Position numbers and translations under genes: made by a program. A stretch of DNA of 64,000 bases. It comes from Candidatus Campbellbacteria bacterium (GTDB taxonomy: Bacteria > Patescibacteriota > Minisyncoccia > Phycocordibacterales > EsbW-18). Location of the stretch: positions 10,096 through 74,095 of the forward strand of contig CP064977.1 in assembly GCA_016699465.1 (NCBI GenBank). Direction: 5' to 3'. Numbering within the stretch: position 1 is the first letter of the stretch; every line of letters begins with the position of its first letter. The notes beneath the pieces are model-generated. The model did not search any database, was not told where the DNA came from, and saw only the letters and a list, made by a program, of their open reading frames with translations. This document shows, piece by piece, positions 32,601 to 48,918 of the stretch.

Positions 32601-33221
32601 CCACAGTGTTCAGACGGTATCGACAACGACGAAGATGGATTCACTGACTGGCCATCAGACACAACATGCGGCGGGCCATCAGACAATGATGAGCAGGGTG
32701 GTGGTGGTGACGAACAACGCGGAACAATCATCATTAAAAAAGAGGTAACTGATGGTAGTGACAGTGATGTAAACTTCTTCTTCAACGCAACATGGTTGGG
32801 AGAAGAGGGAACATTCAGTCTCACTGGTGGCGATGAAAAGTCCTACGTTCTTGCCCCTGGTGAATACGGTGTTGATGAGGCTCAAAAGCTTGGTTGGACT
32901 CTCACGAATGAATCATGTGTGTCTGACAACCCAACTCCAACAAAGGTATTCTCTGAGATACAAACACAAATCACATCAGACATTACTCTCCACGATGGTG
33001 AAGTGGTGACATGCACCTTCATAAACGATCAAGATAAGAAAAATAATGGAGATGATGATGGTGGAGGACAAAGCAGTGGTGGTGGAGGACGCAGTCACCG
33101 AAACAGGTCTTCAAGCACAGGAGAAGTGCTTGGTGAACAAGTGCTCGGCGATCAGGTTGCCCTTGCCCCTGTTGGAGCACCAAACACAGGTTTTGGAGGA
33201 CTCAAGATGTGTTTCTACTAA
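29613..33221 (+). CDS. Large secreted cell-surface protein (1202 aa) with signal peptide, three copies of a roughly 130-aa repeat, a GEVED domain, and prealbumin/Cna-B-like beta domains
   Basis: Three repeats share W...GW....A.WIW....E..TFT..F....A.L.LA.DN.Y...ING....NPAG..Y.L.V. DFGDAPDPGHSYPT...SDGEVEDYQIAI is the GEVED signature. The C-terminus carries APNTG, 10 residues from the end. Confidence 0.8.
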   Translation: MNFITNASYKTYRGIGLTFMAALLIVGVFSFNALNANALVAPLCEPNNPDIIYSDSDTQVEGGGSAVAVTPHSVWLSTVSIPGATWVWDADKTPANDTGSNPAGTLTFTRTFTITDTPTGATLDITTDNSYVATINGHAIGSDGTWQSVESYVIPAGDLLSGTNTLTIVATNDGPDGPGNPAGLLYKLTVNSEVCPPDLDFGDAPDPGHSYPTRLVSDGARHVIVPGVYLGTLIDAETDVVPGSDALEDDNFGIDDEDGVLITSSPVACPTNHGCILVTGTTATMEVTASVAGYIDAWVDWSTSGVFEPTDRIFNNQPVVAGLNTLTFAVPIDGNASNYVESFLRVRFHTTDGALLPSGLASDGEVEDYQIAIRNWCEPGQEPGTDPGYPYSCIPVQACRVDVVSAVGDQGVGNGNAVAAWIHSGWTTALNSVATWIWDSYQIQNLAVDESKTFTKDFYVDGPVNDATLNLAADNRYWVTINGNPIISNTGEFNYGAVTGPTDVTTNVVSGWNTIEFKIENIANGELNPEINPAAGIYQLVVNGREEGVCEQPPADDTTLTVIKMTNPDGSTQPFDFTLDSEAFATLQDNDDGSGAIPVATGTHLLAEIGLPDWGLTGWECRNDAEQLVGTDMGESGIELDFSHGDDITCTFTNTKDEAPFCEGNLIKNGSFEAPIVTDNGGDWQLFANLTPGLEWIAKLVDTETDAPLEIQAGYSGWVAQNGDQYAELDSTAPTTISQNVVTTPGQAYKLTYWRATRPGTLPENNAVWVTQNGEQIDSNVFGVTSSNPDWYMSPEVTFIATSSLTNLAFKDIGSSADSLGTFIDSVCLVPTKNPEPKTCSLDVVSDTTNVVVETGLNAVATWVHPGWTTSIPGATWIWKSLNVENPTSDEIYTFTKYFNWTDTTKLVSANLDLATDNSYRVWVNDQGVSTSTDENNFSAADSYDVKSLLVNGTNKITVEVKNWALGGSTAETNPAGALYKLTLTGEDGSCTPDPLPQCSDGIDNDEDGFTDWPSDTTCGGPSDNDEQGGGGDEQRGTIIIKKEVTDGSDSDVNFFFNATWLGEEGTFSLTGGDEKSYVLAPGEYGVDEAQKLGWTLTNESCVSDNPTPTKVFSEIQTQITSDITLHDGEVVTCTFINDQDKKNNGDDDGGGQSSGGGGRSHRNRSSSTGEVLGEQVLGDQVALAPVGAPNTGFGGLKMCFY

Positions 33222-33372
33222 AAATGTAAGATACGAAGCACGGCCTCCGAAAGGGAAGCCTCGCTTCTAGAAATCAAACAAAACCCGCCATCTAGGCGGG
33301 TTTTGTGCTGTAGATACAGTATTTGGACGGGATTGACATAAACTCTAAAAAGAGTTATCATATATAACGTAT

Positions 33373-34023
33373 ATGATTTCTTTTACTCTAGAAACACACA
33401 CAAAACAACTACTCGTATCTGTAGGAATTCTAGTTCTCGTTGTTGGGTGTGGAATTCTCCTTGTCTCAAAACAAGGTGTGCAGGAGGGCCGTTTCTCAAA
33501 AAGTCTTACGAGCGATCGTGCTACATCTTCACGACCAATGTTTGATCCAGCACAACCACTTACTGAATCAGTGCCAGTACGTATCCGTATACCAAAAATA
33601 TATGTAGATACAAATTTTGTTCCGCTTGGATTACAAGACACTGGAGAAATTGAAATTCCAAAAGGATATACAGAAGTGGGATGGTATACGTATGGTCCAA
33701 CTCCCGGTGAATTAGGACCAGCAGTTGTTCTTGGGCACGTTGATTCATATGAAGGACCTGGTGTGTTTATGTCACTCGGACAACTCACACAGGGTGAGTA
33801 TGTGTACATTGATCGCGCTGATGGAACGACAGCACTATTTCGTGTAACAGCACTTGAACGATACAATAGGAATGAGTTTCCAACGAAGGATGTCTATGGT
33901 GATATAGATTTTTCTGGGTTGCGTCTTATCACGTGTTCAGGGACCTACAATCATGAGACACACGAATATGACCGAGTACTCGTGGTGTATGCGACACTTG
34001 TTGATAACGATGGTACGAAGTAG
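33373..34023 (+). CDS. Class F-like sortase (transpeptidase)
   Basis: N-terminal TM, catalytic His in VVLGHVDS, and the sortase TLxTC motif as LRLITCSG. Confidence 0.8.
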   Translation: MISFTLETHTKQLLVSVGILVLVVGCGILLVSKQGVQEGRFSKSLTSDRATSSRPMFDPAQPLTESVPVRIRIPKIYVDTNFVPLGLQDTGEIEIPKGYTEVGWYTYGPTPGELGPAVVLGHVDSYEGPGVFMSLGQLTQGEYVYIDRADGTTALFRVTALERYNRNEFPTKDVYGDIDFSGLRLITCSGTYNHETHEYDRVLVVYATLVDNDGTK

Positions 34024-35082: not shown

Positions 35083-36342
35083 ACGTAGTGTGCCGTGTGC
35101 ACGAAGTGTGTCGTGTGCGGGTAGAAAAACTCCATACCCATTGGAGTTTTTTGTATAGGCAATATAGCCAGCAATACCTATCATAACTGCGTTGTCAGTC
35201 GAGAGTTCGTGCGTAGGGAGAAGTAGGGTAACATCAGGAAATTCTTGTGCGAGCATTTTTTTCATCTCGTCACGCAGGTAGGTGTTTGCGACAACACCGC
35301 CACCAATAATGAGTGTTGGTGCATTGTAGAGCTCGAGAGCTTTTTTTGTTTTTGCAACGAGCACTTCAATAGCGGCGTCTTCAAATTCTCTCGCAATTTC
35401 TTTTTTTTGATCATCGGAGAGTTCGCCGATTTTTTTGACAGTGTAGAGTACTGCGGTTTTGAGTCCTGCAAAAGAAAAGTCAAAATCTTCAGAATTGATC
35501 ATGGGACGAGGGAGATGAATCGCAGATGTACGCGAATCAGACGCAGATACACGCGAATTTGTATTGGTGTTTATTTGTGTTTTTTGTGCGTTCGTTCGCG
35601 AGATTTCGGCAAGAGCCGAAATCTGAGGTCCGCCAGGATAGGGAAGTCCGAGGAGACGTGCGACTTTATCAAACGCCTCTCCCACGGCGTCATCGCGTGT
35701 TTGTCCTATGAGTTCGTAGGTGCCCCAGTCGCGCACACAAACAAGTTCCGTGTGTCCACCCGACACAAGAAGCGCAACCGTAGGAAATTCTATTTTCGGA
35801 TTTCGGATTTCGGATTTCGGATTTTTTTCTCCGTTCATCAACACGGAGAGGATGTGTCCTTCCATGTGGTTAACAGGAACAAGTGGAATATTCCAAAAGA
35901 AAGAAAGTGCTTTTGCAAAACTAATACCAACCCAAAGTGCGGGTTCAAGACCGGGACCTTGTGTAACCGCTATCGCATCAAACCCAGGATTTTCAGGATG
36001 CTCTGTGAAGTATTGTTTGAGTTGAATGAGGAGCTCTGGTTCACGATCGAGGATGGAAGATAAAATGTCGAATGTGGAAGCGTCGTGTTTTTCATTTGTT
36101 ATTTGATATTTGATATTGCCCCCTGCGTTTTGAAGGGCAAGTGTAAGCATTGGTACCAAGTTGAGCTGGTGCTCCCGTTTTGCAAGGTTAGGGAAGACAC
36201 CACCAAATTCGGCGTGTTTTGAGGCCTGCGAGTAGAGTCCTGTGCCTAAAACGCTACAGGAGGGCATATGCGCCTCTCCAGAGCATTCTAGGATGCTCAC
36301 CGCTGTCTCGTCACAACTTGTTTCTATTGCTAGTATTTTCAT
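35068..36342 (-). CDS. tsaD: tRNA N6-adenosine threonylcarbamoyltransferase TsaD with low-complexity insertions
   Basis: MKILAIETSCDETAVSI, LNLVPMLTLA and GGVAAN-like motifs. The 424-aa length is explained by inserts encoding NSRVSASDSRTSA and KNPKSEIRNPKIE. Confidence 0.9.
   Translation of the reverse strand: MKILAIETSCDETAVSILECSGEAHMPSCSVLGTGLYSQASKHAEFGGVFPNLAKREHQLNLVPMLTLALQNAGGNIKYQITNEKHDASTFDILSSILDREPELLIQLKQYFTEHPENPGFDAIAVTQGPGLEPALWVGISFAKALSFFWNIPLVPVNHMEGHILSVLMNGEKNPKSEIRNPKIEFPTVALLVSGGHTELVCVRDWGTYELIGQTRDDAVGEAFDKVARLLGLPYPGGPQISALAEISRTNAQKTQINTNTNSRVSASDSRTSAIHLPRPMINSEDFDFSFAGLKTAVLYTVKKIGELSDDQKKEIAREFEDAAIEVLVAKTKKALELYNAPTLIIGGGVVANTYLRDEMKKMLAQEFPDVTLLLPTHELSTDNAVMIGIAGYIAYTKNSNGYGVFLPAHDTLRAHGTLRLHNE
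35800..35830. repeat. Heptanucleotide microsatellite (atttcgg x4) inside the tsaD coding insert
   Basis: ggatttcggatttcggatttcggattttt, read directly. Confidence 0.8.
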
Positions 36343-36483
36343 GCGGGCGGTCTCGTGTTAGAACCAAAGTCGGACAAGACCAGTAAGGTTATTTTAGCAC
36401 TTTTTCAGAAACTAAATCGACGCGTCTCGTGCGGACTAAAAAGTGACAAAAGTTACACTACTTGGGGTATATAAAGTTACACC

Positions 36484-37095
36484 CTACTGTAACTTTATAA
36501 CTTTAAATGAACCTGTGTTATTTCTATCTCTGCCAGAATAGTATTCTGTTTCAAGGCTATTTTCATCAGTAAGTTTGGCTGTCGCAGATCCATAGTGAAT
36601 ATGCATAGTCTCAGGCGCACTATCCTTTGGGACATTCATATACTGATAATGAATTCTGGCTGTATCAAATTGATCCACATTCATTGATGTCTCAAAACTA
36701 TGAGATTCCGATGTCTCTGTTTCTAGGTAAATACTGACATGTGTCCATGTTTGTTTAATACAAAACTTTTTTGTTGGTATCGGTCCTTTTGAGTAAACAG
36801 AAGCCGAGTTTATTTCACCCGACCATGAGCCATCAACTATAGGCGTTCTAATTCCAAGTAGCTTACGAATATGTTTGTTTCTCCAAAGCTTAGTATCAAA
36901 CCATTTATACAGAATTCCGTAGAACCCTATTACTGATGGCGCTTCTATCCACCAAGGCAGGGATATTACGTTCTTGGAGAATAAATACAGCCCCCAAGCA
37001 AGCAATATTGCAAATACTGCCAAGTAGAAAGATGCCTTTTTATGTTCTTCTGAATTTATTGAATATGGGTGCATATAGATTATCTTTCGTACCAA
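36484..37095 (-). CDS. 2TM beta-strand-rich effector-like membrane protein (S-2TMbeta-like), overlapping the SMODS gene by 16 nt
   Basis: Two N-terminal TM helices (FYLAVFAILLAWGLYLF, WWIEAPSVIGFYGILYKWF), then a beta-rich soluble domain. Translational coupling with the upstream cyclase. Confidence 0.5.
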   Translation of the reverse strand: MVRKIIYMHPYSINSEEHKKASFYLAVFAILLAWGLYLFSKNVISLPWWIEAPSVIGFYGILYKWFDTKLWRNKHIRKLLGIRTPIVDGSWSGEINSASVYSKGPIPTKKFCIKQTWTHVSIYLETETSESHSFETSMNVDQFDTARIHYQYMNVPKDSAPETMHIHYGSATAKLTDENSLETEYYSGRDRNNTGSFKVIKLQ

Positions 37096-37997
37096 TTATC
37101 CCAAAGATCAACAAGTGCAACTATTGTCGCTACAGCATCGTCAGTATTCCATTGCTCTCCTGACGTGCCAAAAAGTGGTATAAGACCATTTTGACACATG
37201 AAATCGTCAATTGGGTTAGTGTATAAATAATTTAAAACAGATCTTGTTGACGCAGATAAATCGTTAGAGAAACAAGAGTTTGGTACATTGTAAATTAAGC
37301 TTTGTAAAAAATACGATGGTGCCTTTTCTTTATCTAGAAGACCTTTGTCAACAAGATAATTTCGAGCGTTTTTTATAATTCTTACAACCTGCTTAAATTG
37401 ATTTTGAGTATTTTGATGTTTTTGTGCACCATTTTTGAAATGATGTTCAGGGTAATTTACAATGGCTCTATTGGTTGTTCGGTGATAAAATTTTACACCT
37501 TCCTCTGAACTATGTGTGTCAGATCCGAAAAAATAGTCATACTTACGATAATTAATTACTGGTACCACATCCGCTTTTAAGCGACCCGATGTTGGTAGAA
37601 TTTTAATAGATTTATTTCCGCTTGTATCAACATTAGCTACAGCATAGTAGCTTTCGAGTGCCGAAATAACATCTCGTCGCAAATCTTGCCAATCGTAAAT
37701 AGCGCTACTGTATGCTTGATCATGAGCAGTTTTTTGTTCATAAGGAAGTTCATGTGCATTATGACCAAACGTAGTTGTAAGCTCAACGACAACATCAACA
37801 TCGCTATCCGCCCTAATATTTGTGTCGTTTTTATAAGAACCTTGTAAATAAATTTTTACAGAACCACTACTAATACGATCTTTCAGTGGCGAAAGATCGT
37901 GAGTAAGTGCACAACGTATAGATTCGTGAGTTGTTTTAGATGACACAGTAGCACCTTGGTTCGACCATGTTTCTAATTGAGAAAGAGGTATAGACAT
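37080..37997 (-). CDS. SMODS-domain nucleotidyltransferase (CD-NTase-like cyclic oligonucleotide synthase)
   Basis: Pol-beta NTase core YLQGSYKNDTNIRADSDVDVVVEL (GS...DxD), a third acidic residue in KADVVPV, and SMODS-like KSIKILPTS and QVVRIIKNAR. Confidence 0.65.
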   Translation of the reverse strand: MSIPLSQLETWSNQGATVSSKTTHESIRCALTHDLSPLKDRISSGSVKIYLQGSYKNDTNIRADSDVDVVVELTTTFGHNAHELPYEQKTAHDQAYSSAIYDWQDLRRDVISALESYYAVANVDTSGNKSIKILPTSGRLKADVVPVINYRKYDYFFGSDTHSSEEGVKFYHRTTNRAIVNYPEHHFKNGAQKHQNTQNQFKQVVRIIKNARNYLVDKGLLDKEKAPSYFLQSLIYNVPNSCFSNDLSASTRSVLNYLYTNPIDDFMCQNGLIPLFGTSGEQWNTDDAVATIVALVDLWDNWYER

Positions 37998-37999
37998 AT

Positions 38000-38227
38000 T
38001 TAGCCCCTAGGTGGGAATGGATCGTTGCCGTAACTATTACGTTCCTGAATCTTTCCATCTTTACCGTGAATAAAATGTTCAACCTTTGCTTTTTCAGCAA
38101 TATTTTCTGCTCTATTGAGAGCATTCTCTTTTGTGTGATGTGAAGAAAGTGGAGTAGAAGATTTTTCTGCTTTATTTTCCCACATGTGACGATCTGAATT
38201 GAAAACTGTATGTATATTTTTTGCCAT
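38000..38227 (-). CDS. DUF2188-family small protein
   Basis: MAKNIHTVFNSDRHMWENKAEKS...TKENALNRAENIAEKAKVEHFIHGKDGKIQERNSYGNDPFPPRG matches the DUF2188 pattern ...HV.P...GW.VK.EG......T...A...AR..A.....EL.IHG.DG.I....SYGNDP.PP.G. Confidence 0.6.
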   Translation of the reverse strand: MAKNIHTVFNSDRHMWENKAEKSSTPLSSHHTKENALNRAENIAEKAKVEHFIHGKDGKIQERNSYGNDPFPPRG

Positions 38228-38240
38228 ATGTTTTTTAAGA

Positions 38241-38879
38241 TTAACTTTTAATAATACCCACAACCTTTCCGCTTATCTGGAAGTCATCACCCTCGTGAAT
38301 AAATATTGGTAGATATTTTTCAGTTGAGTCGGCTTCTAGAATAATCATTCTATTCACCTTGTCTTCTCTGTATCGCTTGATCGTAGCAAGACCGTCTATA
38401 ACAGCGACAACTATGTCAGTATTTTTATAAATCTTGTATTCACTATCAACCAAAACAAAATCTCCACTTTCAATCGTCTTTCCATCAATTTCTGCTTTGT
38501 TCATACTATCGCCGTCAGCGATAAGTGCATACAAATTACTTTTGTTGCGTGGAAGAAGTGAAGAAGAAATTTTCAAATACTGGTCTATATTTTGCTCTGC
38601 GAATATTGTGGCAGGACCACAGTTGGCAGACCCAACAACAGGGAGGGAGTAGATCGGACTTGCTGATGCTTTTGCATAACCTCTTTTGACGAGCTTTATA
38701 ACCCCAGCTTCAAGATTCATTTGGATCAATCCTCCCTCAGCAAGCTTCTGAAGGTGGTACTTGGCAGTCTGGGGTTTTCCCTCTGCACCAACCATTTCAG
38801 CTATCTTTCTAAGGCTGTATGACCCAAAATCCTCGTGTGTCGCAATAAGATCTAAAAGTTGCTTTTGTATGATATGCAT
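38241..38879 (-). CDS. lexA: LexA-like repressor (winged-HTH plus S24 peptidase), possibly a phage CI-type repressor
   Basis: N-terminal LexA DNA-binding-domain-like segment (LTQKQLLDLI...YHLQKLAEGGLI). A C-terminal Ser-Lys dyad (GDSMNKA, ATIKRY). Confidence 0.8.
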   Translation of the reverse strand: MHIIQKQLLDLIATHEDFGSYSLRKIAEMVGAEGKPQTAKYHLQKLAEGGLIQMNLEAGVIKLVKRGYAKASASPIYSLPVVGSANCGPATIFAEQNIDQYLKISSSLLPRNKSNLYALIADGDSMNKAEIDGKTIESGDFVLVDSEYKIYKNTDIVVAVIDGLATIKRYREDKVNRMIILEADSTEKYLPIFIHEGDDFQISGKVVGIIKS

Positions 38880-38957
38880 AGGGGTAGTATAGCATGTTCA
38901 AAGTAAAGTGTAAATAAAGATTTGACATTTTACACCCCCTCTTGATAGAATAGAGAC

Positions 38958-39371
38958 ATGGAGCAGAAATTAGTATTGCACGAAGCGATTCACGAACCCA
39001 AATTGGGTGATATTATCATCGAAATAACCGATGTTCAATTTCACACCAATGCTCGTGTGACCACTTCCCAAGCAAATACTATTGATCGCTCCGTGCAGTC
39101 AAATAAGCCTGGTCGAGTATTTTCTCCAATGAGCCAAGGCTCGTTGAAAATAATAGAAAACAATACATTGTTGTTTTCTGGTCCATTTTTTGATTACGAA
39201 CAACTCAAAATTCTTGTTACAAAATATAATCAACAAGGAAAAAGAGTTTTTATTAAAAAACCAACAGCTAAAATACCATTACTTCCTGGTAAAGATACTG
39301 TTGAATTCGTAAACAGTATAAAGGGACAAAGAATTTTAAGGAGATTAGAAAAACAGGAAAAGATTGCTTAA
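38958..39371 (+). CDS. Hypothetical protein, divergent from the lexA-like gene
   Basis: ORF only. No recognisable motif. Confidence 0.35.
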   Translation: MEQKLVLHEAIHEPKLGDIIIEITDVQFHTNARVTTSQANTIDRSVQSNKPGRVFSPMSQGSLKIIENNTLLFSGPFFDYEQLKILVTKYNQQGKRVFIKKPTAKIPLLPGKDTVEFVNSIKGQRILRRLEKQEKIA

Positions 39372-39533
39372 AACAATAATGCGTAGTAACAAGCGAATAG
39401 TGTAGCTCCCTAGGACATGCCTATTCCGCGCAAAAAATAGCAGAAGCTTCGAACTTCTTTTATTTTGTGTGTGGAATAGGCTTTTTCTATACCTGTGTCC
39501 ATACATTTTATTAAAAATTATTAATAAAATGCT

Positions 39534-40808
39534 ATGCAAAAAATACAATGGCGTGCAGAAATTCGAGAGGTTAAAGATCTTGTTCCTTGGAAAGAAAATC
39601 CGAGAAAAATAACAAAGGTCGCTCTTGAGAAATTAAAAGACAAAATCATTCAAAGTGGTTTTCATAGTGTGATCGTTGTTGATACCGACAATACTATTTT
39701 GTCAGGTAACCAAAGAAAAGTAGCTCTCACTCAATTAGGAATCAAGGAAGTCCCTGTTCTCGTTCCTGATCGTACACTCACTAATGATGAGCGTACCAAG
39801 ATTGCACTTGAAAGCAATGTGAACGATGGCGAGTGGGATTTTGAAAAGCTTAAGTCGTTTGATTTAGATCTCATAAAATTTGCAGGATTTTCTGACATGG
39901 AAATCGCAAAGTTTTGGGATGAAGACAAAGATACAAAAGACGATAAGTTTGACGTCGACAAGGAAATCAAAAAGATAAAGACACCTGTGGTGCAAAAAGG
40001 TGATCTCATTATCATGGGTGATCACAAGTTACTCTGTGCCAGTTCAACAGACATACACGCCGTACAAAAACTATTCGGAGAGCATAAGGCGACGGCTATC
40101 TATAGCGATCCACCTTTTAATATCGGGCTATCGTATGACAAAGGCGTTGGTAACACCAGAAACTATGGTGGATCTTTCGACGACAACCAGTCTCCAAAAG
40201 AGTACGTTGAATTCATTCGACAAGTATTGAAGTCTGCACTTTCTGTATCTGTTGAAGACTTGCATGTCGCATTCTGGGCGGATGAAGCCTGGGTGTGGGT
40301 TTTTCAAACGCTCTACATGGAACTGGGTATTAAGAACAGACGCTTGAATGTCTGGGTGAAGAACAATTCATCACCGACCCCTACGGTTGCTTTCAACAAA
40401 TGTACAGAGTTTTGTGTCTATGGAAGTAAAGGATCTCCATACTTGTCTGACTTGGTAAAAAATCTCAATGAGATACAAAACAAAGATCTAAGCACAGGAA
40501 ACCAATTGCTTGAAGAAATATCAAACCTCTGGGCAACGAAGCGACTTCCATCGAATCAAATGGAGCACCCAACAAGCAAGAATCCAGAATTACATCATAA
40601 GTTCATTATGCGTTGCACTAAGCCTGGCGACATTATTTTTGATGCCTTCTCGGGATCTGCTAGCACCATGATCTGTGCGGAACAATTGGGTCGCAAGGTG
40701 TACTCCTTAGAAATCGAGCCAGTATTTTGTGATTTGGCAATTCGCCGTTATGAAAAACTGACTGGTCGGAAAGCAGAGATAATCAAAAACTTCTATGAAG
40801 AAAAATAA
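39534..40808 (+). CDS. ParB-like nuclease domain fused to a beta-class N6-adenine/N4-cytosine DNA methyltransferase
   Basis: ParB N-terminal motif SGNQRKVALTQLG. Catalytic motif IV SDPPFNIG precedes SAM motif I FDAFSGSAST (beta order). Such fusions are typical of phages and plasmids. Confidence 0.8.
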   Translation: MQKIQWRAEIREVKDLVPWKENPRKITKVALEKLKDKIIQSGFHSVIVVDTDNTILSGNQRKVALTQLGIKEVPVLVPDRTLTNDERTKIALESNVNDGEWDFEKLKSFDLDLIKFAGFSDMEIAKFWDEDKDTKDDKFDVDKEIKKIKTPVVQKGDLIIMGDHKLLCASSTDIHAVQKLFGEHKATAIYSDPPFNIGLSYDKGVGNTRNYGGSFDDNQSPKEYVEFIRQVLKSALSVSVEDLHVAFWADEAWVWVFQTLYMELGIKNRRLNVWVKNNSSPTPTVAFNKCTEFCVYGSKGSPYLSDLVKNLNEIQNKDLSTGNQLLEEISNLWATKRLPSNQMEHPTSKNPELHHKFIMRCTKPGDIIFDAFSGSASTMICAEQLGRKVYSLEIEPVFCDLAIRRYEKLTGRKAEIIKNFYEEK

Positions 40809-41202
40809 ACTCCAAGATCATTTTTTTGAAGAACTGACAAAAGTACCGATTGTACAAGTTGCTTGTGAAAAAACAGGTGTCTCTCGCAATAGTGTATACC
40901 GTTGGCGGAAAGACGATGCTTCATTCTGCAAGAAAATGGATCAAGCACTTAAAGACGGTGTGGCGTTGGTGAACGATATGAGTGAGACACAGCTCCTCAC
41001 CTTGATTAAGGAAAAGAATTATCCCGCCATCAGTTTCTGGCTCCGTCACCGCAATGACAACTACAAAAATAAACTCGAAATCACGACAAAAGAAGAAAGC
41101 GAAGCACTCACACCGTCACAGGCAAAGATCGTCCGCAACGCTCTTAAACTCGCTTCTATTACCAAGAGCAAATCCATTAAAAGAATTAACAAAGAAAAAT
41201 AA
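40795..41202 (+). CDS. Putative terminase small subunit (HTH protein immediately upstream of TerL)
   Basis: HTH-like VACEKTGVSRNSVYRWRK. The call rests on size and position. Confidence 0.45.
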   Translation: MKKNKLQDHFFEELTKVPIVQVACEKTGVSRNSVYRWRKDDASFCKKMDQALKDGVALVNDMSETQLLTLIKEKNYPAISFWLRHRNDNYKNKLEITTKEESEALTPSQAKIVRNALKLASITKSKSIKRINKEK

Positions 41203-41204
41203 TT

Positions 41205-42734
41205 ATGACTAAAATAATTGAAACCAGTTTAGTGAATAAAATGATGAAAGATAAGTTAGTGCGAACCTCTATCACTAAAGATAGCTTCTTGTACTTCTTC
41301 CACTTCTATTATGCCCATTATGTAAAGTATGAGACTGCGGACTTCCAGAAAGAGATCATCCACCATTTAGAAAAGTCAGCCATAGAGAATTTGTATGTGG
41401 TGGCATTTCGTGGATCAGGAAAATCAACCATGGTGACAACTGCATACCCGATCTGGGCGATCCTTGGAAAACAACAAAAGAAGTTTTGTATGATCTTCTG
41501 TCAGACCAGAATACAAGCCAAGCAACACATGATGAACATTAAAAACGAACTTGAGGGAAATGATCTGCTCAAGAAAGACCTCGGACCATTCCAAGAAGAG
41601 AGCGATGAATGGGGTTCATATTCTCTTGTGTTCAACAAAAGCGGTGCCAGAATTACAGTTGCTTCAACTGAACAAAGTATCCGTGGGTCACGACACAATG
41701 AACACCGCCCCGATCTCATCATCTGTGACGACGTTGAAGACGTACAGTCCACCAAAACACGCGAGGGGCGGGATAAGACATACCAATGGCTCTATGGCGA
41801 GGTTATTCCTGCGGGAGATAGAAAGACCCGATTGATCATTGTTGGAAACCTCTTACACGAAGATTCGCTTCTCATGCGTATCAAGGATGATATTGAGAAC
41901 AAACGCTCAAGAGGTGTCTTTAAACAATACCCACTTTTAGATGAACAAGATGTTTGTTTATGGCCTGGAAAATATCCAGAACTCAAAGATGTTGAAGAAC
42001 AGAAAATGAGTGTGGCGAGTGAGATATCGTGGCAGAGAGAATACTTGCTCCGTATTATTCCAAGTGACGATCAAGTAATTTATCCAGAGTGGATTCAATT
42101 CTATGACGAACTTCCTGGAACAAAACATAAGGGCTATCGTGGTACCTATGCAGGAGTGGATCTTGCAATCTCAACCAAAGATTCAGCGGACTATACTGCT
42201 ATCGTGTCTGCTCATGTGTATTCTCGTCGGGAGAAAATGAGAATCTATATTCTTCCAAATCCAATAAAACAGAAATTAAATTTTCCTGCACAAGTTGATC
42301 TCATGAAGAACTTCAAGAATACACAAATGCCAAGAAGACAAGATACGCTGTTTGTTGAAAGTGTGTCGTATCAAGAAGCCTTACCACAAATGCTTGAACT
42401 TAACGGTGTTGAAGCAGAGTCAGTAAAGCCAAAAGGAGACAAAAGAACAAGACTATCTCTCACTTCGACTTCTATCAAATCAGGAATCATTAAGTTTCCG
42501 CGGCACGGATGTGAAGATCTGATCCAAGAGCTTGTTGGATTCGGTGTTGAAAAGCATGATGACTTAGCCGATGCTTTTTCGCTCCTTATTAACTCGACAT
42601 TAGACAAACACGCACATGACGGTACGGTACTTATGGCATGGGTTAGTACAGATCGTAACTATGGCTGTGACGACGATGACATCTTATATTACAGCGATTA
42701 TGTTGATGTAGAAAAACCTATTCGTTTATCTTAA
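41205..42734 (+). CDS. Phage terminase large subunit
   Basis: Walker A AFRGSGKST and Walker B LIICDDVED. RNase-H-like nuclease domain with acidic residues (GVDLAISTKDSADYTAIV, HDDLADAF). Confidence 0.85.
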   Translation: MTKIIETSLVNKMMKDKLVRTSITKDSFLYFFHFYYAHYVKYETADFQKEIIHHLEKSAIENLYVVAFRGSGKSTMVTTAYPIWAILGKQQKKFCMIFCQTRIQAKQHMMNIKNELEGNDLLKKDLGPFQEESDEWGSYSLVFNKSGARITVASTEQSIRGSRHNEHRPDLIICDDVEDVQSTKTREGRDKTYQWLYGEVIPAGDRKTRLIIVGNLLHEDSLLMRIKDDIENKRSRGVFKQYPLLDEQDVCLWPGKYPELKDVEEQKMSVASEISWQREYLLRIIPSDDQVIYPEWIQFYDELPGTKHKGYRGTYAGVDLAISTKDSADYTAIVSAHVYSRREKMRIYILPNPIKQKLNFPAQVDLMKNFKNTQMPRRQDTLFVESVSYQEALPQMLELNGVEAESVKPKGDKRTRLSLTSTSIKSGIIKFPRHGCEDLIQELVGFGVEKHDDLADAFSLLINSTLDKHAHDGTVLMAWVSTDRNYGCDDDDILYYSDYVDVEKPIRLS

Positions 42735-43635
42735 AAGAGACAATCGCAAGTGGTAGTTCAAAGTCATCCATTGAGATAATGAATGGACCTTCCTTACCTT
42801 TCTTGTATAGGTACAAAAATCCATCTCTAATATCTAGAGAGGATATTTTGTCGTACGGAATACTGAAGTGTTTATTAAGACCAATATATCCAAGATTTTC
42901 TGTTGTTAGATAAAAAGTACCAGCATCGTCTGTCATCATGACATTCACTTTTTGTGGATTAATTTTGACATTACCAACTCGGTATCTCAACCCCTTGGCA
43001 ATTTTTATAGATGCAGAAAAACCACTGTAGTTATAACTCTTGGTTATCGATTTGTTTTTGATAATAAATGCCTTACTAACATAGTGCAGTTTTTCACCAT
43101 TACTTAAATTAACATTCAAATTAGGAACATCAATAGTTGGAAGTTTACCCTCGTCGATTAGATAAAGTGTATGGTATTTATTAAAATCACTCTGATTGTA
43201 AGCGAGATTATCAGTTGAAAGATTTAGATCTGAATAAATTTTAACTAGTTCCTTTCGCTCTGCTTCTGTAATTCGTGAGTCATCAGTGATCTTGTCAAAG
43301 AAAATTTTGAATCCTGCTAAGTTGTATTTCTCAACATCCTTGTCAGTTAAATTATGCTCCTTTTTAATTTCTTCTAAAATTATTTTCTCTTCATCTGAGA
43401 GGTTGCCGTCAATTAATAGCTCTTTAATTTTCTGAGAATATAAATCTAAGCCTTTTCTTTTTGGTGATCTGAATACTTTGGTAAATAAAAGATAGATTAC
43501 ACCGACAATAAGACCTATATAAACGAGGTTTTTAAATAAATCAAAATTAACTATAACAATAGTAAGAACAACGAGAACAATAATTATCTGTTTAAAAAGA
43601 GATAATTGTTTAAACTTTTCTAAAAGATTTTTCAT
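42718..43635 (-). CDS. Hypothetical membrane protein: two TM helices, TerB-like helical repeats, and a bacterial-PH-like C-terminal domain
   Basis: TM helices at the N-terminus. DGNLSDEEKIILEEI and SRITEAERKELVKIY resemble TerB. TDDAGTFYLTTENLGYIG...SIPYDKISSLDIRDGFLYLYKKG resembles a bPH domain. Confidence 0.4.
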   Translation of the reverse strand: MKNLLEKFKQLSLFKQIIIVLVVLTIVIVNFDLFKNLVYIGLIVGVIYLLFTKVFRSPKRKGLDLYSQKIKELLIDGNLSDEEKIILEEIKKEHNLTDKDVEKYNLAGFKIFFDKITDDSRITEAERKELVKIYSDLNLSTDNLAYNQSDFNKYHTLYLIDEGKLPTIDVPNLNVNLSNGEKLHYVSKAFIIKNKSITKSYNYSGFSASIKIAKGLRYRVGNVKINPQKVNVMMTDDAGTFYLTTENLGYIGLNKHFSIPYDKISSLDIRDGFLYLYKKGKEGPFIISMDDFELPLAIVSFKINE

Positions 43636-43989
43636 AAACTTTGGACGGTTTTGTTATGAAGGATCGTATAGGTAGCAAAAAGCTCCTAGCCAGATCCGAT
43701 ATACCCCGTGAGGTATACCCATACCCGTTTCCAGATATGACCGTCCAAAGTAGACTCTGACTAGGAGTTCTTTACTTTGGACGGATTTTGCGACCATATC
43801 CTGTAATTGCTTACAGGGGTTAGGTCTCTGTATTAACTTGTAAATGAATAATAACATTTTTGACCCTATTATTCAATTTAAATTCTATCGCAAACCCCTA
43901 GTTTTGCTAAGGCTAGTACGCGAGTACGCTACGTTTTTTTAGTTCTGCATAGACTTAGCAAGACTAGTGTTCTCTGTCATTAATATAGT

Positions 43990-45309
43990 ATGGAAACATA
44001 TACCACAGCCAGAATTGGTAAGGAGGTTATAGCACCAGTACAAAAAATTAGGTACGTTCTATATGCTCGTAAATCAACCGAATCAGAAGAACGCCAAGTT
44101 CTTTCGATTGATTCGCAAGTAAAGGAAATGCTTGAGCTTGCCGAACGTGATGGACTGGAAGTCGTAGAAATACGAAGAGAATCGCATAGTGCAAAAGAAT
44201 CAGGACAACGACCTGTGTACAAGGAAATTTTAGAAGATGTACGACGAGGACGATTTAATGGAATCCTCACTTGGGCACCCGATCGTCTTTCTCGTAACGC
44301 TGGTGACTTGGGAAGTATTGTCGATCTCATGGATCAGCAACTACTAATGGAGATTCGGACATACGGTCAACAGTTTAAAAACTCACCGAACGAAAAGTTC
44401 CTTTTAATGATTTTGTGTTCTCAAGCAAAACTTGAAAACGACAACAAGAGTATTAACGTAAAACGAGGATTGCGAACAAGAGTAGAAATGGGATTATGGC
44501 CTGGTCCTGCTCCAACAGGCTATATGAAAGAGAAACGAATGGATCGAAAGTGTGAGACACTCCTTGATCTAGAACGAGCACCAATTATTAAAAAGATGTT
44601 TGAGAAAGTGGCGTATGAACATTGGAGTGGTAGAAAAATCTATAATTGGCTCAAATTTGATTTAAACCTCAGAACCGCTGTAGGAAAGAAACATCTCAGT
44701 TTAGGAAATATTTATAAAGTTTTAGATAACACCTTTTATTACGGAGTTTTTGAGTATCCAAGACGATCAGGTAATTGGTATACAGGAAAGCATGAACCAA
44801 TAGTGACTAAGGAATTGTTTGATCTAGTACAAGCACAGATAAAAAGTAATGTGTTAAGAGTAGAAAACAAGGAGTTTGCTTTTACTAAAATGATGCTCTG
44901 TGGATTATGCGGATCTGGCATATCAGCAGATGAGAAATTCAAGAAAATCAAGAATGGTGGTGTTGCTCGATACGTCTATTACGGCTGTACTAAAGCGCGC
45001 GGGGTGGATTGTAAATGTGGGTATACAGAAGAAAGAGAATTGCTCAAGCAGTTCAACGAACTAATCGAAAAGATAAATTTAAATGAAATAGAAGTCAAAG
45101 AAAAGATAAAATATGATGTTGAGCGATTTTCTAAACTACAAAAATTCTTACTAGGGACTAAAGAAAAAATTGATATCCCAAATATAGACGTACGAGGATA
45201 TGCGAAGTATGTCTTAAAAGAAGGAACCGATATTGAAAAGCGAGAACTACTTGGATGTTTGAAGAGTAAGATCTGTTTGGCGAATAAAAAGATTACTTTG
45301 AAAGAATAA
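43990..45309 (+). CDS. Large serine recombinase (phage-type serine integrase)
   Basis: Resolvase catalytic domain (YARKSTESEERQ...SIDSQ), a recombinase domain, and a zinc ribbon CGLCGSG...YYGCTKARGVDCKC. Confidence 0.9.
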   Translation: METYTTARIGKEVIAPVQKIRYVLYARKSTESEERQVLSIDSQVKEMLELAERDGLEVVEIRRESHSAKESGQRPVYKEILEDVRRGRFNGILTWAPDRLSRNAGDLGSIVDLMDQQLLMEIRTYGQQFKNSPNEKFLLMILCSQAKLENDNKSINVKRGLRTRVEMGLWPGPAPTGYMKEKRMDRKCETLLDLERAPIIKKMFEKVAYEHWSGRKIYNWLKFDLNLRTAVGKKHLSLGNIYKVLDNTFYYGVFEYPRRSGNWYTGKHEPIVTKELFDLVQAQIKSNVLRVENKEFAFTKMMLCGLCGSGISADEKFKKIKNGGVARYVYYGCTKARGVDCKCGYTEERELLKQFNELIEKINLNEIEVKEKIKYDVERFSKLQKFLLGTKEKIDIPNIDVRGYAKYVLKEGTDIEKRELLGCLKSKICLANKKITLKE

Positions 45310-45341
45310 GTACAAAACTAATAGGACCCATCATTTTGACA

Positions 45342-45365
45342 AGTATACCCCCTAAGGGGTATACT
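45342..45365. promoter_or_regulatory. Candidate CsoR operator, a perfect palindrome agtatacccc-cta-aggggtatact
   Basis: Perfect inverted repeat read directly. Located 2 to 25 bp upstream of the csoR start. Confidence 0.55.
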
Positions 45366-45366
45366 T

Positions 45367-45648
45367 TTGCCTATGGAATACTTAGACAAAAAGAGTAAGG
45401 AAAAAATTGTTCGCAGGCTCAAACTTATTGAAGGTCAAATCAGAGGCCTTCAAAAAATGGTCGACAATGACACTTATTGCATTGATGTTATTACGCAGAC
45501 TTCGGCAGTCAAACAAGGTCTTTCCAACATTGAAGACTTGTTGCTTGAAAACCATCTGAATCATTGCGTAGAACATGATATGTCTTCGGGTAAGCTTGTT
45601 AAAGCAAAAAGCGAGGTCATGAAAGTCTACAAGCTTAAGAGGAAATAA
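45367..45648 (+). CDS. csoR: CsoR/RcnR-family metal-sensing repressor
   Basis: 93 aa with the W-X-Y-Z ligand pattern (C in DTYCIDV, H and C in HLNHC). A four-helix DUF156-like length. Confidence 0.75.
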   Translation: MPMEYLDKKSKEKIVRRLKLIEGQIRGLQKMVDNDTYCIDVITQTSAVKQGLSNIEDLLLENHLNHCVEHDMSSGKLVKAKSEVMKVYKLKRK

Positions 45649-45662
45649 AGCTACAATCATAT

Positions 45663-47597: not shown

Positions 47598-47606
47598 GAA
47601 AATATA

Positions 47607-47640
47607 GTTAGAAAAAAGAACGACAATTGTCGTTCTTTTT
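47607..47640. terminator. Rho-independent terminator after the P-type ATPase
   Basis: aaaaaagaacgacaattgtcgttcttttttctg. Confidence 0.6.
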
Positions 47641-47737
47641 TCTGCAACATGTAGGTTTGTGGGTCGCACTTAGTACATAACTAAATGGGTCATCAAAACT
47701 AACAGTCATAGACAAAGTAAGGATTAATTAACTAGGT

Positions 47738-47960
47738 ATGCGAACAAAACTTGAAGAAGAGATCAAGCGATTTAACTGACAGCAAAGACTTGCAACCAAA
47801 AGAACGCCAAAGTATTCAATCAACGAAGATGCCGTGAATATTAGAGAATATGCCAAGTATGTACTTAGAGGAGGGTACTCCACTGGAGAAGCATGAACTG
47901 ATTGGACATTTGAGGAGCAGGTTAATACTGAAAGAGAAGAAAATCACCTTGGTAGTGTAA
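47738..47960 (+). pseudogene. Degraded C-terminal fragment of a second serine recombinase gene, with stops and frameshifts
   Basis: Nucleotide and translated similarity to the last roughly 75 codons of the 43990-45309 recombinase (atatgccaagtatgtacttagaggagg versus atatgcgaagtatgtcttaaaagaagg; ...aaagagaagaaaatcacc versus aataaaaagattactttg). In-frame stops are present. Confidence 0.6.
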
Positions 47961-47979
47961 TGGAGAAATTAAGTAGTTG

Positions 47980-48008
47980 ACTTCCAAAACCATATACCCT
48001 ATACTATA
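47980..48008. promoter_or_regulatory. Candidate CsoR operator, a perfect palindrome ccatataccctata-c-tatagggtatatgg
   Basis: 14-bp perfect arms, immediately upstream of the second csoR. Confidence 0.55.
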
Positions 48009-48014
48009 GGGTAT

Positions 48015-48302: not shown

Positions 48303-48340
48303 ATTTTTAGTGTTTTATTATTAAATTTATATAAAAAATT

Positions 48341-48904: not shown

Positions 48905-48918
48905 TATAAAATCCCTAT

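What the first reader, a model, noticed from the sequence alone, without database searches (positions are those of the whole stretch)
36484..38879. Minimal CBASS-like operon (SMODS cyclase plus 2TM beta-rich effector) co-oriented with a DUF2188 gene and a LexA-like repressor, in a CPR-like genome
On the minus strand the order is lexA-like (38241-38879), DUF2188 (38000-38227), SMODS nucleotidyltransferase (37080-37997, GS...DxD...ADVVP) and a 203-aa protein with two N-terminal TM helices and a beta-rich tail (36484-37095). The effector overlaps the cyclase by 16 nt, which implies translational coupling. A SMODS cyclase paired with a 2TM effector is the simplest CBASS layout. Finding it behind a LexA/CI-type repressor, together with a DUF2188 protein, inside a prophage-like element in a CPR-like bacterium is unusual. 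It may be an SOS-controlled or phage-repressor-controlled abortive-infection module whose regulator (LexA plus DUF2188) is part of the system.
Basis: partly seen in the sequence, partly recalled or inferred. Interest (0 to 1): 0.8.

Follow-up and report, generated by a model that had tools for sequence, protein, structure and literature searches.

The report
CBASS cargo on a small mobile element
This is a genuine two-gene CBASS anti-phage suicide system (a CdnE cyclase plus the membrane-disrupting effector Cap15) in a Saccharibacteria genome, carried as swappable cargo behind a LexA-like repressor and a very conserved small DUF2188 protein on a ~9-kb mobile element that has phage packaging genes but no virion genes.

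Summary
On the minus strand lie an S24 LexA-like repressor (38241-38879), DUF2188 (38000-38227), a clade-E CD-NTase (37080-37997) and Cap15 (36484-37074/37095). The cyclase and effector form an ordinary type I CBASS of a documented pairing (CdnE + Cap15).

The context is the new part. The operon is the cargo end of a compact ~9-kb integrated element (~36340-45340): serine integrase, TerL, TerS, ParB-methyltransferase and a small ORF, then divergently the repressor, DUF2188 and the cargo. No capsid, tail or lysis genes were recognised. The same backbone recurs in many CPR genomes, and the host flanks are unrelated.

One exact DUF2188 protein, behind 97-98% identical repressors, precedes CBASS in some copies and Thoeris in others. 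The swap junctions lie ~11 nt after the DUF2188 stop codon and at a conserved terminal motif. Other copies carry PADLOC candidate defence genes.

So LexA-like + DUF2188 belong to the element's backbone (a cargo-expression head). They are not CBASS-specific regulators. SOS-type control of the operon is plausible: the Ser/Lys dyad is intact, a Cys-Gly cleavage site is present, and an inverted repeat overlaps both divergent promoters. It is untested. DUF2188's function remains unknown, although it is under strong purifying selection.

The parts
36484..37095 (-). Cap15 effector (two N-terminal TM segments plus a cyclic-nucleotide-binding beta-barrel). The likely true start is the ATG at 37074 (196 aa); the TTG at 37095 gives 203 aa.
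   Evidence: Pfam Cap15_CD_rec 1.6e-25 and Cap15_TM 2e-10. PADLOC 2TM effector 3.5e-57. PDB 7N34 Cap15 4e-08. Profile alignments start at residue 8. Sequence read.
37080..37997 (-). Clade-E CD-NTase (CdnE), the CBASS cyclase.
   Evidence: PADLOC cyclase 6.7e-106. PDB 6E0K RmCdnE 2.9e-66, full length. Invariant G53 S54 D64 D66 D68, near-invariant D143. Lid-1 Asn181, and Cys/Glu at the RmCdnE C252/E265 positions.
38000..38227 (-). DUF2188 protein (75 aa), the last backbone gene before the swappable cargo. Its stop codon is 2 nt before the cyclase ATG.
   Evidence: Pfam DUF2188 9.4e-16. PADLOC PDC-S16 3e-25. phrog_3220 2.1e-20. 13 synonymous / 0 non-synonymous codon differences versus L002. Swap junction ~11 nt after its stop codon.
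38241..38879 (-). Self-cleaving S24 LexA/CI-like repressor ('type A'), first gene of the operon.
   Evidence: Peptidase_S24 1.6e-19. phrog_4 transcriptional repressor 1.1e-22. Full-length alignment to E. coli LexA with Ser (GDSM), Lys (IKRY) and a Cys-Gly site. NCBIfam lexA 83.9 bits, below the 110.95 cut-off.
38880..38957 (.). Divergent control region. It holds the inverted repeat GTGTAAA-N14-TTTACAC (38908-38935), which overlaps the -35 boxes of the two best promoter-like sites (+ strand 38922-38951, - strand 38914-38886).
   Evidence: One match versus 0.02 expected. Promoter scan 11/12 and 10/12. The sequence is not conserved in L002/L095/L097, whose repressor is 72% identical.
36343..36498 (.). 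Conserved terminal segment of the element after the cargo. It contains AAAGTTACAC x2 and GTGACAAAAG (36443-36485). Similarity to sister elements ends at ~36337-36343, at the TsaD start codon.
   Evidence: blastn to L001/L002/L026 ends at 36336-36343. The motif is shared with L095/L097/L002 downstream of either cargo. Coordinates.
38958..39371 (+). orf137, first gene of the divergent operon. Unknown function; co-varies with the type-A repressor.
   Evidence: No Pfam/PHROG/PADLOC hit. Homologs lie divergent from the repressor in L002, L014 and L017.
39534..40808 (+). ParB_N-DNA methyltransferase fusion.
   Evidence: N6_N4_Mtase 4.2e-29. phrog_498 3.7e-73.
40795..41202 (+). Small terminase subunit.
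   Evidence: phrog_4044 2.5e-08 and four other TerS PHROGs.
41205..42734 (+). Large terminase subunit.
   Evidence: phrog_38 6.6e-79. Terminase_6C 2.1e-05. NCBIfam TIGR01630 above cut-off.
42718..43635 (-). orf305, which occupies a second variable cargo slot between TerL and the integrase.
   Evidence: Absent from L005-L008. Only weak PDC-S48/DUF5048 hits. The same slot holds SNase+LTD in L017 and an Ltp lipoprotein in L086.
43990..45309 (+). Large serine recombinase (integrase) at the right end of the element.
   Evidence: Resolvase 9e-21, Recombinase 4.5e-14. phrog_95 integrase 5.4e-59. A CsoR box and CsoR gene start at ~45344, which sets the right boundary.

Best explanation
The locus is a type I CBASS: a clade-E CD-NTase plus Cap15.

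Inferred from characterised homologs: on phage infection the cyclase makes a cyclic dinucleotide, most likely 3'3'-cUMP-AMP-like. Cap15's beta-barrel binds it, Cap15 oligomerises through its two TM helices, and it disrupts the inner membrane, killing the cell before phage release.

Shown here by comparative genomics: this CBASS pair is exchangeable cargo in a defence hotspot at one end of a ~9-kb integrative element (~36340-45340). The layout is serine integrase - [cargo slot 2] - TerL - TerS - ParB-methyltransferase - orf137, then divergently the S24 repressor - DUF2188 - [cargo slot 1 = CdnE-Cap15] - terminal motif. The element has no recognisable virion genes, so it looks like a phage satellite or mini-prophage. 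The S24 repressor and DUF2188 are backbone genes. In sister elements the same two genes precede Thoeris or other candidate defence genes.

Inferred from anatomy: the four genes are one transcription unit driven from the repressor's own promoter. The repressor binds the inverted repeat that overlaps both divergent -35 boxes. The defence cargo is therefore expressed at a repressor-limited level in the integrated state. RecA-stimulated self-cleavage (DNA damage or phage replication) would derepress both the cargo operon and the element's packaging operon.

This is functionally like lambda cI-rexAB, and like CapH/CapP-controlled CBASS. DUF2188's role is unknown. It is a strongly constrained protein tied to the backbone and not to any particular cargo.
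For: CBASS identity. PMC10442399 documents CdnE+Cap15 type I operons and the Cap15 mechanism.

Product guess: Asn181 matches RmCdnE N166, and Cys/Glu sit at the RmCdnE C252/E265 positions. The specificity rules are from PMC10442399.

Element backbone:
- It recurs in L005-L008, L017, L021, L026, L086, L095, L107, L108 and L113.
- TerL is directly adjacent to the integrase in L005, L006, L008, L095 and L108.
- TerL/TerS/integrase identities.
- Boundaries.
- Host flanks are unrelated in 116 of 120 locus pairs.

Cargo swap:
- One exact DUF2188 sequence (P0125) lies in L097 with CdnE-Cap15 and in L095/L096/L098-L100 with ThsB_TIR+ThsA_Macro. ThsA is confirmed at 2.8e-38.
- The S24 proteins are 97-98% identical.
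- Junctions: 95% nt identity up to ~11 nt after the DUF2188 stop codon, nothing across the cargo, then 88% from the cargo stop codon.
- Other cargo: PDC-S39, PDC-M36A and PDC-S33.

Repressor competence. Operator and promoters.

Regulator swapping at the same position: S24 type A versus type B (~30% identical), or an XRE HTH plus an HEAGH-motif protein.

DUF2188 constraint.
Against: - There are no expression, cleavage or binding data. Co-transcription and SOS control are inferred from spacing and motifs only.
- The inverted repeat is not conserved in the closest type-A repressor loci, so its operator role rests on this one sequence.
- No replication gene, helper phage, att core or excised form has been identified, so mobility is inferred only from differing flanks and mosaicism.
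- In L018 and L022 a LexA-small gene-CdnE-Cap15 cassette occurs without a nearby TerL module. That fits a repressor+CBASS unit that can exist on its own.
- The cyclic-nucleotide product is a guess from three residues.
Confidence: 0.7

Rival explanations
1. LexA-like plus DUF2188 are dedicated regulatory components of a four-gene CBASS variant: an SOS-triggered CBASS, a one-protein analogue of CapH/CapP.
For: - Tight packing: 13-, 2- and 5-nt gaps.
- A same-strand S24 gene lies upstream in 11 of the 26 closest CdnE loci.
- Type-B S24 proteins are 45-97% identical across loci whose cyclases are 50-72% identical to the window's.
- L018 and L022 carry the cassette without the terminase module.
- The L086 family has an HTH plus an HEAGH-motif protein in the same place.
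- DUF2188 has been reported next to CBASS, and in HTH/metallopeptidase operons.
Against: - The same DUF2188 and 97-98% identical S24 head Thoeris instead of CBASS, with junctions outside DUF2188.
- DUF2188 also heads PDC-S39, PDC-M36A and unknown cargo, with the S24 gene divergent or absent.
- None of the 54 more distant CdnE-Cap15 loci has an S24 gene on the same strand upstream, and no DUF2188 was detected in them.
- The repressor type co-varies with the divergent partner gene, as phage immunity modules do.
Confidence: 0.12
2. DUF2188 is a stand-alone defence (or counter-counter-defence) gene stacked in the same hotspot. It has no functional link to the repressor or to CBASS.
For: It matches PADLOC single-gene candidate PDC-S16 at 3e-25. 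It has its own PHROG. The literature lists it beside CBASS, Thoeris and cyclase systems. A 49%-identical relative is solitary in oral-metagenome contigs.
Against: It stays constant while the cargo varies. It lies outside the swap junction. It is always the gene immediately before the cargo, 2-10 nt from the next start codon. Sister elements have a different small protein in exactly this position, which suggests a positional or backbone role.
Confidence: 0.15
3. The surrounding segment is a decayed prophage remnant fixed in the chromosome and not a functional mobile element. CBASS is simply chromosomal island cargo.
For: No capsid, portal, tail, lysis or replication genes were recognised. No att repeat was found. 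A copper-resistance cluster of similarly low GC lies next to it.
Against: The same compact layout with intact ORFs recurs at 66-86% nt identity in many genomes. Flanks are unrelated in 116 of 120 pairs. Modules are exchanged mosaically between copies, as in L026. The cargo replacement is recent and precise.
Confidence: 0.1
4. The 212-aa protein is the host's housekeeping SOS LexA, and its position next to CBASS is incidental.
For: It aligns over its full length to LexA. Type-B relatives pass the NCBIfam LexA equivalog cut-off. There is no other S24 gene in the window.
Against: It lies inside the element boundaries, in the low-GC block. It scores below the LexA cut-off, 83.9 vs 110.95 bits. It is replaced by a 30%-identical S24 or by an XRE HTH at the same position in sister elements. 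It is always divergent from the packaging operon.
Confidence: 0.04

Closest known systems
Type I CBASS with CdnE + Cap15 (e.g. the EfCdnE, ClCdnE and LpCdnE operons; Cap15 structure 7N34)
   Same: Same two-gene core, same gene order and tight coupling. Same domain content: a clade-E CD-NTase, and an effector with two TM segments plus a beta-barrel. No Cap2/Cap3/HORMA/TRIP13 genes.
   Different: The closest solved cyclase is RmCdnE, a cUA producer, and the (R/Q)xW di-pyrimidine motif is absent. The host is a CPR bacterium. The pair sits behind a repressor and DUF2188 on a mobile element.
CapH/CapP- and CapW-regulated CBASS (Lau et al. 2022, bioRxiv 10.1101/2022.04.27.489752; Blankenchip et al. 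2022, PMC9122588)
   Same: A cleavable or ligand-responsive repressor sits next to a CBASS operon, which could link expression to DNA damage. DUF2188 has been reported in CapH/CapP-like operons. The sister family L086 has an XRE HTH plus an HEAGH-motif protein in the same slot.
   Different: Here a single S24 self-cleaving protein replaces the HTH + metallopeptidase pair. It is co-directional with CBASS and first in the operon, not divergent from it. It also controls an element's packaging operon and is not specific to CBASS.
Lambda cI-rexA-rexB and other repressor-linked prophage defence genes
   Same: An abortive-infection module lies directly downstream of, and co-oriented with, an S24-type immunity repressor that is divergent from the lytic or early genes.
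   Different: The cargo is different (CBASS versus Rex). There is one inverted repeat over both -35 boxes and not a tripartite OR. The element has no virion genes.
[quoted passage not shown] 2022, PMC9122126; PMC13586616; PMC10085698)
   Same: A small integrative, phage-related element has a hotspot with conserved flanks in which unrelated defence systems replace each other. There is also a second variable slot.
   Different: The backbone differs: a large serine recombinase, both TerS and TerL, a ParB-methyltransferase and an S24 repressor, with no recognised primase/replicase or capsid-remodelling genes. The hosts are CPR bacteria. It matches none of the four satellite families named in the abstract of PMC10085698 (seen; only P4-like and PICI are legible there).

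Membership tests
CBASS type I | CD-NTase with the GS...[DE]x[DE]...[DE] nucleotidyltransferase active site | tested here: met
   PADLOC cyclase 6.7e-106. RmCdnE 2.9e-66 over the full length. G53 S54 D64 D66 D68 invariant, D143 near-invariant.
CBASS type I | Adjacent effector with a cyclic-nucleotide sensor domain fused to a killing domain | tested here: met
   Cap15_CD_rec 1.6e-25 + Cap15_TM 2e-10. Paired with the cyclase in 77 of 80 related loci.
CBASS type I | No Cap2/Cap3 (type II), HORMA/TRIP13 (type III) or other signature accessory genes | tested here: met
   Pfam and PADLOC scans of all neighbours show none.
CBASS type I | Synthesis of a cyclic oligonucleotide, and phage protection by abortive infection | not testable with these tools
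   Needs biochemistry and phage assays. The product is only guessed from Asn181/Cys/Glu.
Cap15 effector family | Two N-terminal TM helices plus a C-terminal minimal beta-barrel | tested here: met
   Both Pfam domains are above cut-off. The C-terminus aligns to 7N34. One strongly hydrophobic segment at residues 12-40 (196-aa numbering), plus a second weaker one covered by Cap15_TM. No structure was predicted here.
LexA / S24 self-cleaving repressors | S24 domain with a Ser-Lys dyad and an Ala/Cys-Gly cleavage site | tested here: met
   Peptidase_S24 1.6e-19. GDSM Ser, IKRY Lys, and Cys-Gly aligned to LexA Ala84-Gly85.
LexA / S24 self-cleaving repressors | N-terminal winged-helix DNA-binding domain | tested here: inconclusive
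   Only a weak HTH_20 hit (0.0011, below cut-off). However, the N-terminus aligns to the LexA DNA-binding domain in the full-length alignment.
Bona fide LexA (SOS regulator equivalog) | Score above the NCBIfam TIGR00498 cut-off | tested here: not met
   83.9 bits versus a cut-off of 110.95. The type-B repressor of L005 does pass, at 130.7 bits.
CapH/CapP-regulated CBASS | XRE-type HTH repressor plus Zn-metallopeptidase, divergent from the CBASS operon | tested here: not met
   The window has a single S24 protein, co-directional with CBASS. An HTH + HEAGH-motif pair occurs only in the L086 family, and it too is co-directional.
Intact temperate prophage | Virion (portal, capsid, tail) and lysis modules inside the element boundaries | tested here: not met
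   Every ORF between ~36340 and ~45340 was scanned, and none matched. TerL abuts the integrase in several sister elements.
Phage satellite (P4-like, PICI and the other described families) | Integrase + repressor + own replication module + packaging-hijack genes; no full virion module; dependence on a helper phage | tested here: inconclusive
   The integrase (serine type), repressor, TerS and TerL are present and virion genes are absent. No replication gene was recognised and no helper is known. SatelliteFinder was not run.
DUF2188 / PADLOC PDC-S16 | Match to the family profiles | tested here: met
   Pfam 58.2 bits versus a cut-off of 22. PDC-S16 3e-25. The function of the family is unknown.

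The most novel reading that the evidence does not exclude
The ~9-kb backbone is a previously undescribed family of phage-satellite-like elements of CPR/Patescibacteria. It carries its own TerS and TerL, a serine integrase and an SOS-sensitive repressor. It serves as a shuttle for interchangeable abortive-infection systems (CBASS, Thoeris and PDC candidates). DUF2188, with its near-invariant C-terminal SYGNDPFPPRG tail, is a general cargo-independent control factor. For example, it could couple repressor cleavage or helper-phage infection to expression or licensing of whatever suicide system sits downstream, or it could protect the element's own induction from its cargo.
Probability: 0.25. Interest if true: 0.8.

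Novelty: new variant of a known kind. Interest (0 to 1): 0.55.

Why it matters
The CBASS pair itself is ordinary. The value lies in three things.

1. It is clear evidence that ultra-small episymbiotic CPR bacteria carry nucleotide-signalling suicide defences, and that they acquire them on a tiny terminase-bearing integrative element with a cassette-like hotspot. This extends the idea that phages and satellites carry defence hotspots, known from P2/P4 and PICIs, to a very different branch of bacteria.

2. It provides a natural experiment: the same repressor and the same DUF2188, with CBASS in one copy and Thoeris in another. This separates backbone genes from system genes. It also explains why DUF2188 keeps turning up beside unrelated signalling defences in the literature, and why it is listed as PADLOC candidate PDC-S16.

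3. It suggests a third route, alongside CapH/CapP and CapW, by which DNA-damage sensing could be wired to CBASS expression: a one-protein S24 repressor.

DUF2188 becomes a well-defined target for experiments.

Tried and rejected
- **att repeats.** I looked for direct repeats between the Cap15 side (36200-36600) and the tRNA-Ser region (54300-55500). The longest exact match was 10 nt and inside genes. Integration at tRNA-Ser was rejected because the copper cluster lies between, and the element ends at ~45340.
- **Full prophage.** Rejected after Pfam, PHROG and PADLOC scans of every ORF out to 54.8 kb.
- **Operator conservation.** The inverted repeat is absent from the L002/L095/L097 intergenic regions, so it could not be corroborated by comparison.
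- **Variable-slot proteins.** Pfam/PADLOC scans of those in L006, L008, L014 and L017 returned nothing.
- **L086 234-aa protein.** It has no NCBIfam hit and no Pfam family on record in the listing. The peptidase assignment rests on the HEAGH motif alone.
- **Burroughs & Aravind 2020.** The source of the DUF2188/DUF3892 defence link could not be retrieved. It is cited only through Lau et al..
- **16-nt overlap.** I judged this an artefact of taking the longest ORF.


Full report
**1. Observation**

- The 305-aa protein is a CD-NTase. It matches PADLOC CBASS cyclase model PDLC00788 at 6.7e-106 over its full length. Its homologs carry the precomputed Pfam CD_NTase_C domain. It aligns end to end with entry 6E0K (2.9e-66), which PMC10442399 identifies as RmCdnE. 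In an alignment of 44 homologs, G53, S54, D64, D66 and D68 are invariant and D143 is nearly so.
- The 203-aa protein is Cap15. Cap15_CD_rec scores 1.6e-25 and Cap15_TM 2e-10, both above cut-off. The PADLOC 2TM effector model scores 3.5e-57. The C-terminal half aligns to the Cap15 crystal structure 7N34.
- DUF2188 is confirmed at 9.4e-16. It also matches the PADLOC single-gene defence candidate PDC-S16 at 3e-25.
- The 212-aa protein has a Peptidase_S24 domain (1.6e-19). It aligns over residues 5-211 with E. coli LexA. The nucleophilic Ser (GDSM) and the general-base Lys (IKRY) are conserved. Cys-Gly sits where LexA has Ala84-Gly85; from my own knowledge, UmuD uses the same pair.
- The inverted repeat GTGTAAA-N14-TTTACAC occurs once in the window, at 38908-38935, against 0.02 expected. 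It overlaps the -35 hexamers of the two best-scoring promoter-like sites in the region, one on each strand.

There is one correction. The 16-nt cyclase/effector overlap assumes a TTG start at 37095. The PADLOC and PHROG profiles begin at residue 8, and the L002 ortholog is called from the equivalent start as 196 aa. The ATG at 37074, 5 nt after the cyclase stop codon, is therefore more likely. Gene spacing is 13, 2 and 5 nt, which fits a single transcription unit.

**2. What the core is**

CdnE + Cap15 is a documented type I CBASS pairing. PMC10442399 describes the EfCdnE, ClCdnE and LpCdnE operons with Cap15. It summarises Cap15 as two TM segments plus a beta-barrel that disrupts the inner membrane after ligand binding and oligomerisation. 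No type II or type III accessory genes are present.

In the alignment to RmCdnE, the lid-1 Asn is conserved (RmCdnE N166, query N181). The positions of RmCdnE C252 and E265 are also Cys and Glu. According to PMC10442399, those residues leave the donor pocket open to a purine, and the (R/Q)xW di-pyrimidine motif is absent here. The best guess for the signal is therefore a cUMP-AMP-like dinucleotide. This is an inference from three residues.

**3. The genome and the element**

The closest loci in a species-level genome collection are Candidatus Saccharibacteria MAGs at 96% and 94%, and other CPR lineages follow. GC content drops from ~0.44 to ~0.37 at 36 kb.

The genes to the right of the operon are orf137 (no hits), a ParB_N-methyltransferase, TerS, TerL (phrog_38, 6.6e-79), orf305 on the opposite strand, and a large serine recombinase. 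No ORF matches portal, capsid, tail or lysis families.

Beyond the integrase lies a CsoR-type repressor with its palindromic box, followed by a copper-resistance cluster that runs to tRNA-Ser. Nucleotide similarity to sister loci stops at 36337-36343, the TsaD start codon. The element therefore spans ~36340-45340, about 9 kb.

**4. The same compact backbone elsewhere**

In 80 genome loci retrieved with a cyclase profile, the CdnE-Cap15 pair is present in 77. In the closest, mostly CPR, loci I find the same layout: integrase, TerL, TerS, ParB-methyltransferase and a small ORF, then divergently the S24 repressor, a variable gene, CdnE and Cap15. This holds for L005-L008, L017, L021 and L026, for L086 and L095, and for the IMG/VR contigs L107 and L108. 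TerL directly abuts the integrase in several of them.

The elements are mosaic. L026 shares 89% nt identity in Cap15 and 86% in the packaging genes with the window, yet it has a 57%-identical cyclase and a different repressor. A second variable slot lies between TerL and the integrase. It holds orf305 in the window, a SNase+LTD protein in L017 (PADLOC C3a212, 1e-46), an Ltp-type lipoprotein in L086, and ~8 kb in L107. Host-side flanks beyond the cargo end are unrelated in 116 of 120 locus pairs. I take this as evidence for a functional, mobile, satellite-like element, not a one-off prophage remnant. However, no replication gene, helper phage or att core was identified.

**5. Are LexA-like and DUF2188 part of the CBASS system?**

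A same-strand S24 gene lies directly upstream of the cyclase in 11 of the 26 closest loci and in none of the 54 more distant ones. The association is therefore real, but it is specific to this clade.

There are two S24 lineages. Type A is found in the window and in L002, L095 and L097. Type B is found in L005-L008, L014, L017, L018, L022, L026 and L082. The two types are only ~30% identical to each other. Type B passes the NCBIfam LexA equivalog cut-off and the window's type A does not. In the L086 family the same position holds an XRE HTH and a 234-aa protein with an HEAGH motif, which is an ImmR/ImmA- or CapH/CapP-like pair. The regulator type changes along with the divergent partner gene, as phage immunity modules do.

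The decisive result came from sampling DUF2188 independently of the cyclase. One exact DUF2188 sequence (P0125, 86% identical to the window's) lies behind 97-98% identical S24 repressors in two kinds of locus. In L097 it is followed by CdnE-Cap15. In L095, L096 and L098-L100 it is followed by ThsB_TIR + ThsA_Macro, a Thoeris system; ThsA scores 2.8e-38 against PADLOC.

L095 and L097 are 95% identical up to ~11 nt past the DUF2188 stop codon. They are unrelated across the cargo. They are 88% identical again from the cargo stop codon onward, through a terminal motif that the window also carries at 36437-36498.

Other members of this DUF2188 subfamily head other cargo:
- PDC-S39;
- PDC-M36A plus a RelA_SpoT protein (PDC-S33);
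- unrecognised gene pairs.

In these cases the S24 gene is upstream, divergent or absent.

LexA-like + DUF2188 are therefore the constant head of a defence-cargo hotspot, and CBASS is one of several interchangeable cargoes. This probably explains why DUF2188 has been noted beside a P. aeruginosa CBASS, beside Thoeris islands and in CapH/CapP-like operons.

**6. DUF2188**

The protein is under strong purifying selection. Between the window and L002 there are 13 synonymous and 0 non-synonymous codon differences. The C-terminal 27 residues (VEHFIHGKDGKIQERNSYGNDPFPPRG) are identical in eight of the ten elements compared; L091 and L118 differ by 1 and 2 residues. This holds although nucleotide identity falls to ~60-66% and the repressors and cargo differ.

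In sister elements the same position holds a Myb/SANT-like 68-69-aa protein (L017, L086), a weak DUF3892 match (L018), a larger unknown protein, or nothing. The function of DUF2188 is open. The constraint points to a partner that is constant across elements: a host factor, a backbone protein or a helper-phage protein, and not the cargo.

**7. Mechanism, with status**

- Shown: gene identities, catalytic residues, element architecture, cargo exchange, and selection on DUF2188.
- Inferred from characterised homologs: infection-triggered cyclic dinucleotide synthesis, followed by Cap15 oligomerisation and membrane disruption.
- Inferred from anatomy: co-transcription from the repressor's promoter; repressor binding at the inverted repeat that overlaps both -35 boxes; and derepression of both the cargo operon and the packaging operon on RecA-stimulated self-cleavage.

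The inverted repeat is not conserved in the nearest type-A loci, whose repressor is 72% identical. The operator assignment is therefore tentative.

**8. Comparison and novelty**

The core is a member of type I CBASS (CdnE/Cap15). The regulatory arrangement works like lambda cI-rexAB and like CapH/CapP- or CapW-controlled CBASS. It fails the defining features of CapH/CapP: it is a single S24 protein, and it is co-directional with the operon.

The element works like the defence hotspots of P2 phages, P4 satellites and PICIs (PMC9122126, PMC13586616, PMC10085698), but its backbone and host clade are different. I found no paper in the held library that describes CBASS on such elements in CPR bacteria. 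That is an absence of hits, not proof of novelty.

Overall this is a new variant of known kinds, and I rate it moderately interesting.

Noticed in passing
window 45344-54853 (to tRNA-Ser at 54992-55081): A copper-resistance cluster directly abuts the element. It holds two CsoR-type repressors (45367-45648, 48015-48302) with palindromic boxes, two P-type ATPases, a DUF305 protein, a multicopper oxidase, a DsbD-like/HMA protein and a cupredoxin. Its GC content is as low as the element's, so it may be a second island.
   Followed up: partly
window 43636-43989: The 354-nt spacer upstream of the serine integrase carries three copies of CTTTGGACGG (43639 and 43775 direct, 43741 inverted) and a CsoR-box-like ATATACCCCGTGAGGTATAC (43699-43718). 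Parts of the spacer are conserved in L017 and L107. It may be a regulatory or recombination site.
   Followed up: partly
window 36443-36485; L095 ~6644-6720; L097 ~3083-3150: A conserved motif directly after the cargo stop codon (AAAGTTACAC x2 plus GTGACAAAAG) marks the downstream swap junction. Its core GTGTAAC resembles the operator arm GTGTAAA. Its role is unknown; it could be a terminator, a repressor site, a recombination anchor or an att arm.
   Followed up: partly
L010 4400-5923; L091-L094 (524-aa gene, e.g. L091 8454-10028): Single ORFs fuse a LexA DNA-binding domain and an S24 peptidase to a DNA methyltransferase (N6_N4 type in L010, C5 type in L091-L094). They lie near CdnE-Cap15 or DUF2188 cargo. 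This would be a self-cleaving repressor-methylase fusion.
   Followed up: no
L086 8628-9999 (also L087-L090): A sister element family replaces the S24 repressor with an XRE HTH (110 aa) plus a 234-aa protein bearing an HEAGH motif (ImmA/CapP-like, with no Pfam hit on record), followed by a 69-aa Myb/SANT-like protein directly upstream of CdnE-Cap15.
   Followed up: partly
window 42718-43635; L017 456-1349; L086 3837-4562: A second variable slot lies between TerL and the integrase. It holds orf305 (weak PDC-S48/DUF5048) in the window, a SNase+LTD protein (PADLOC C3a212, 1e-46) in L017, and an Ltp-type lipoprotein in L086 (a family I recall as superinfection exclusion; not checked here).
   Followed up: partly
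L018 4150-5109: In a complete Kaiserbacteria chromosome, the LexA-small gene-CdnE-Cap15 cassette follows a 319-aa Mg-chelatase/ComM-like ORF that covers only the N-terminal part of the domain. This may be an insertion into comM.
   Followed up: no
window 37080-37997: NCBIfam's best hit for the cyclase is NF053871 'DS2_2_antiphage, anti-phage nucleotidyltransferase' (295 bits, below the 350 cut-off). It is not one of the generic CBASS cyclase models. The origin of that family name was not traced.
   Followed up: no
window 29613-34023: A 1202-aa repeat-rich secreted protein is followed by a 216-aa ORF that I labelled a sortase from reading its sequence (no family scan was run). Both lie just upstream of the tsaD side of the element and are probably host surface machinery.
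   Followed up: no
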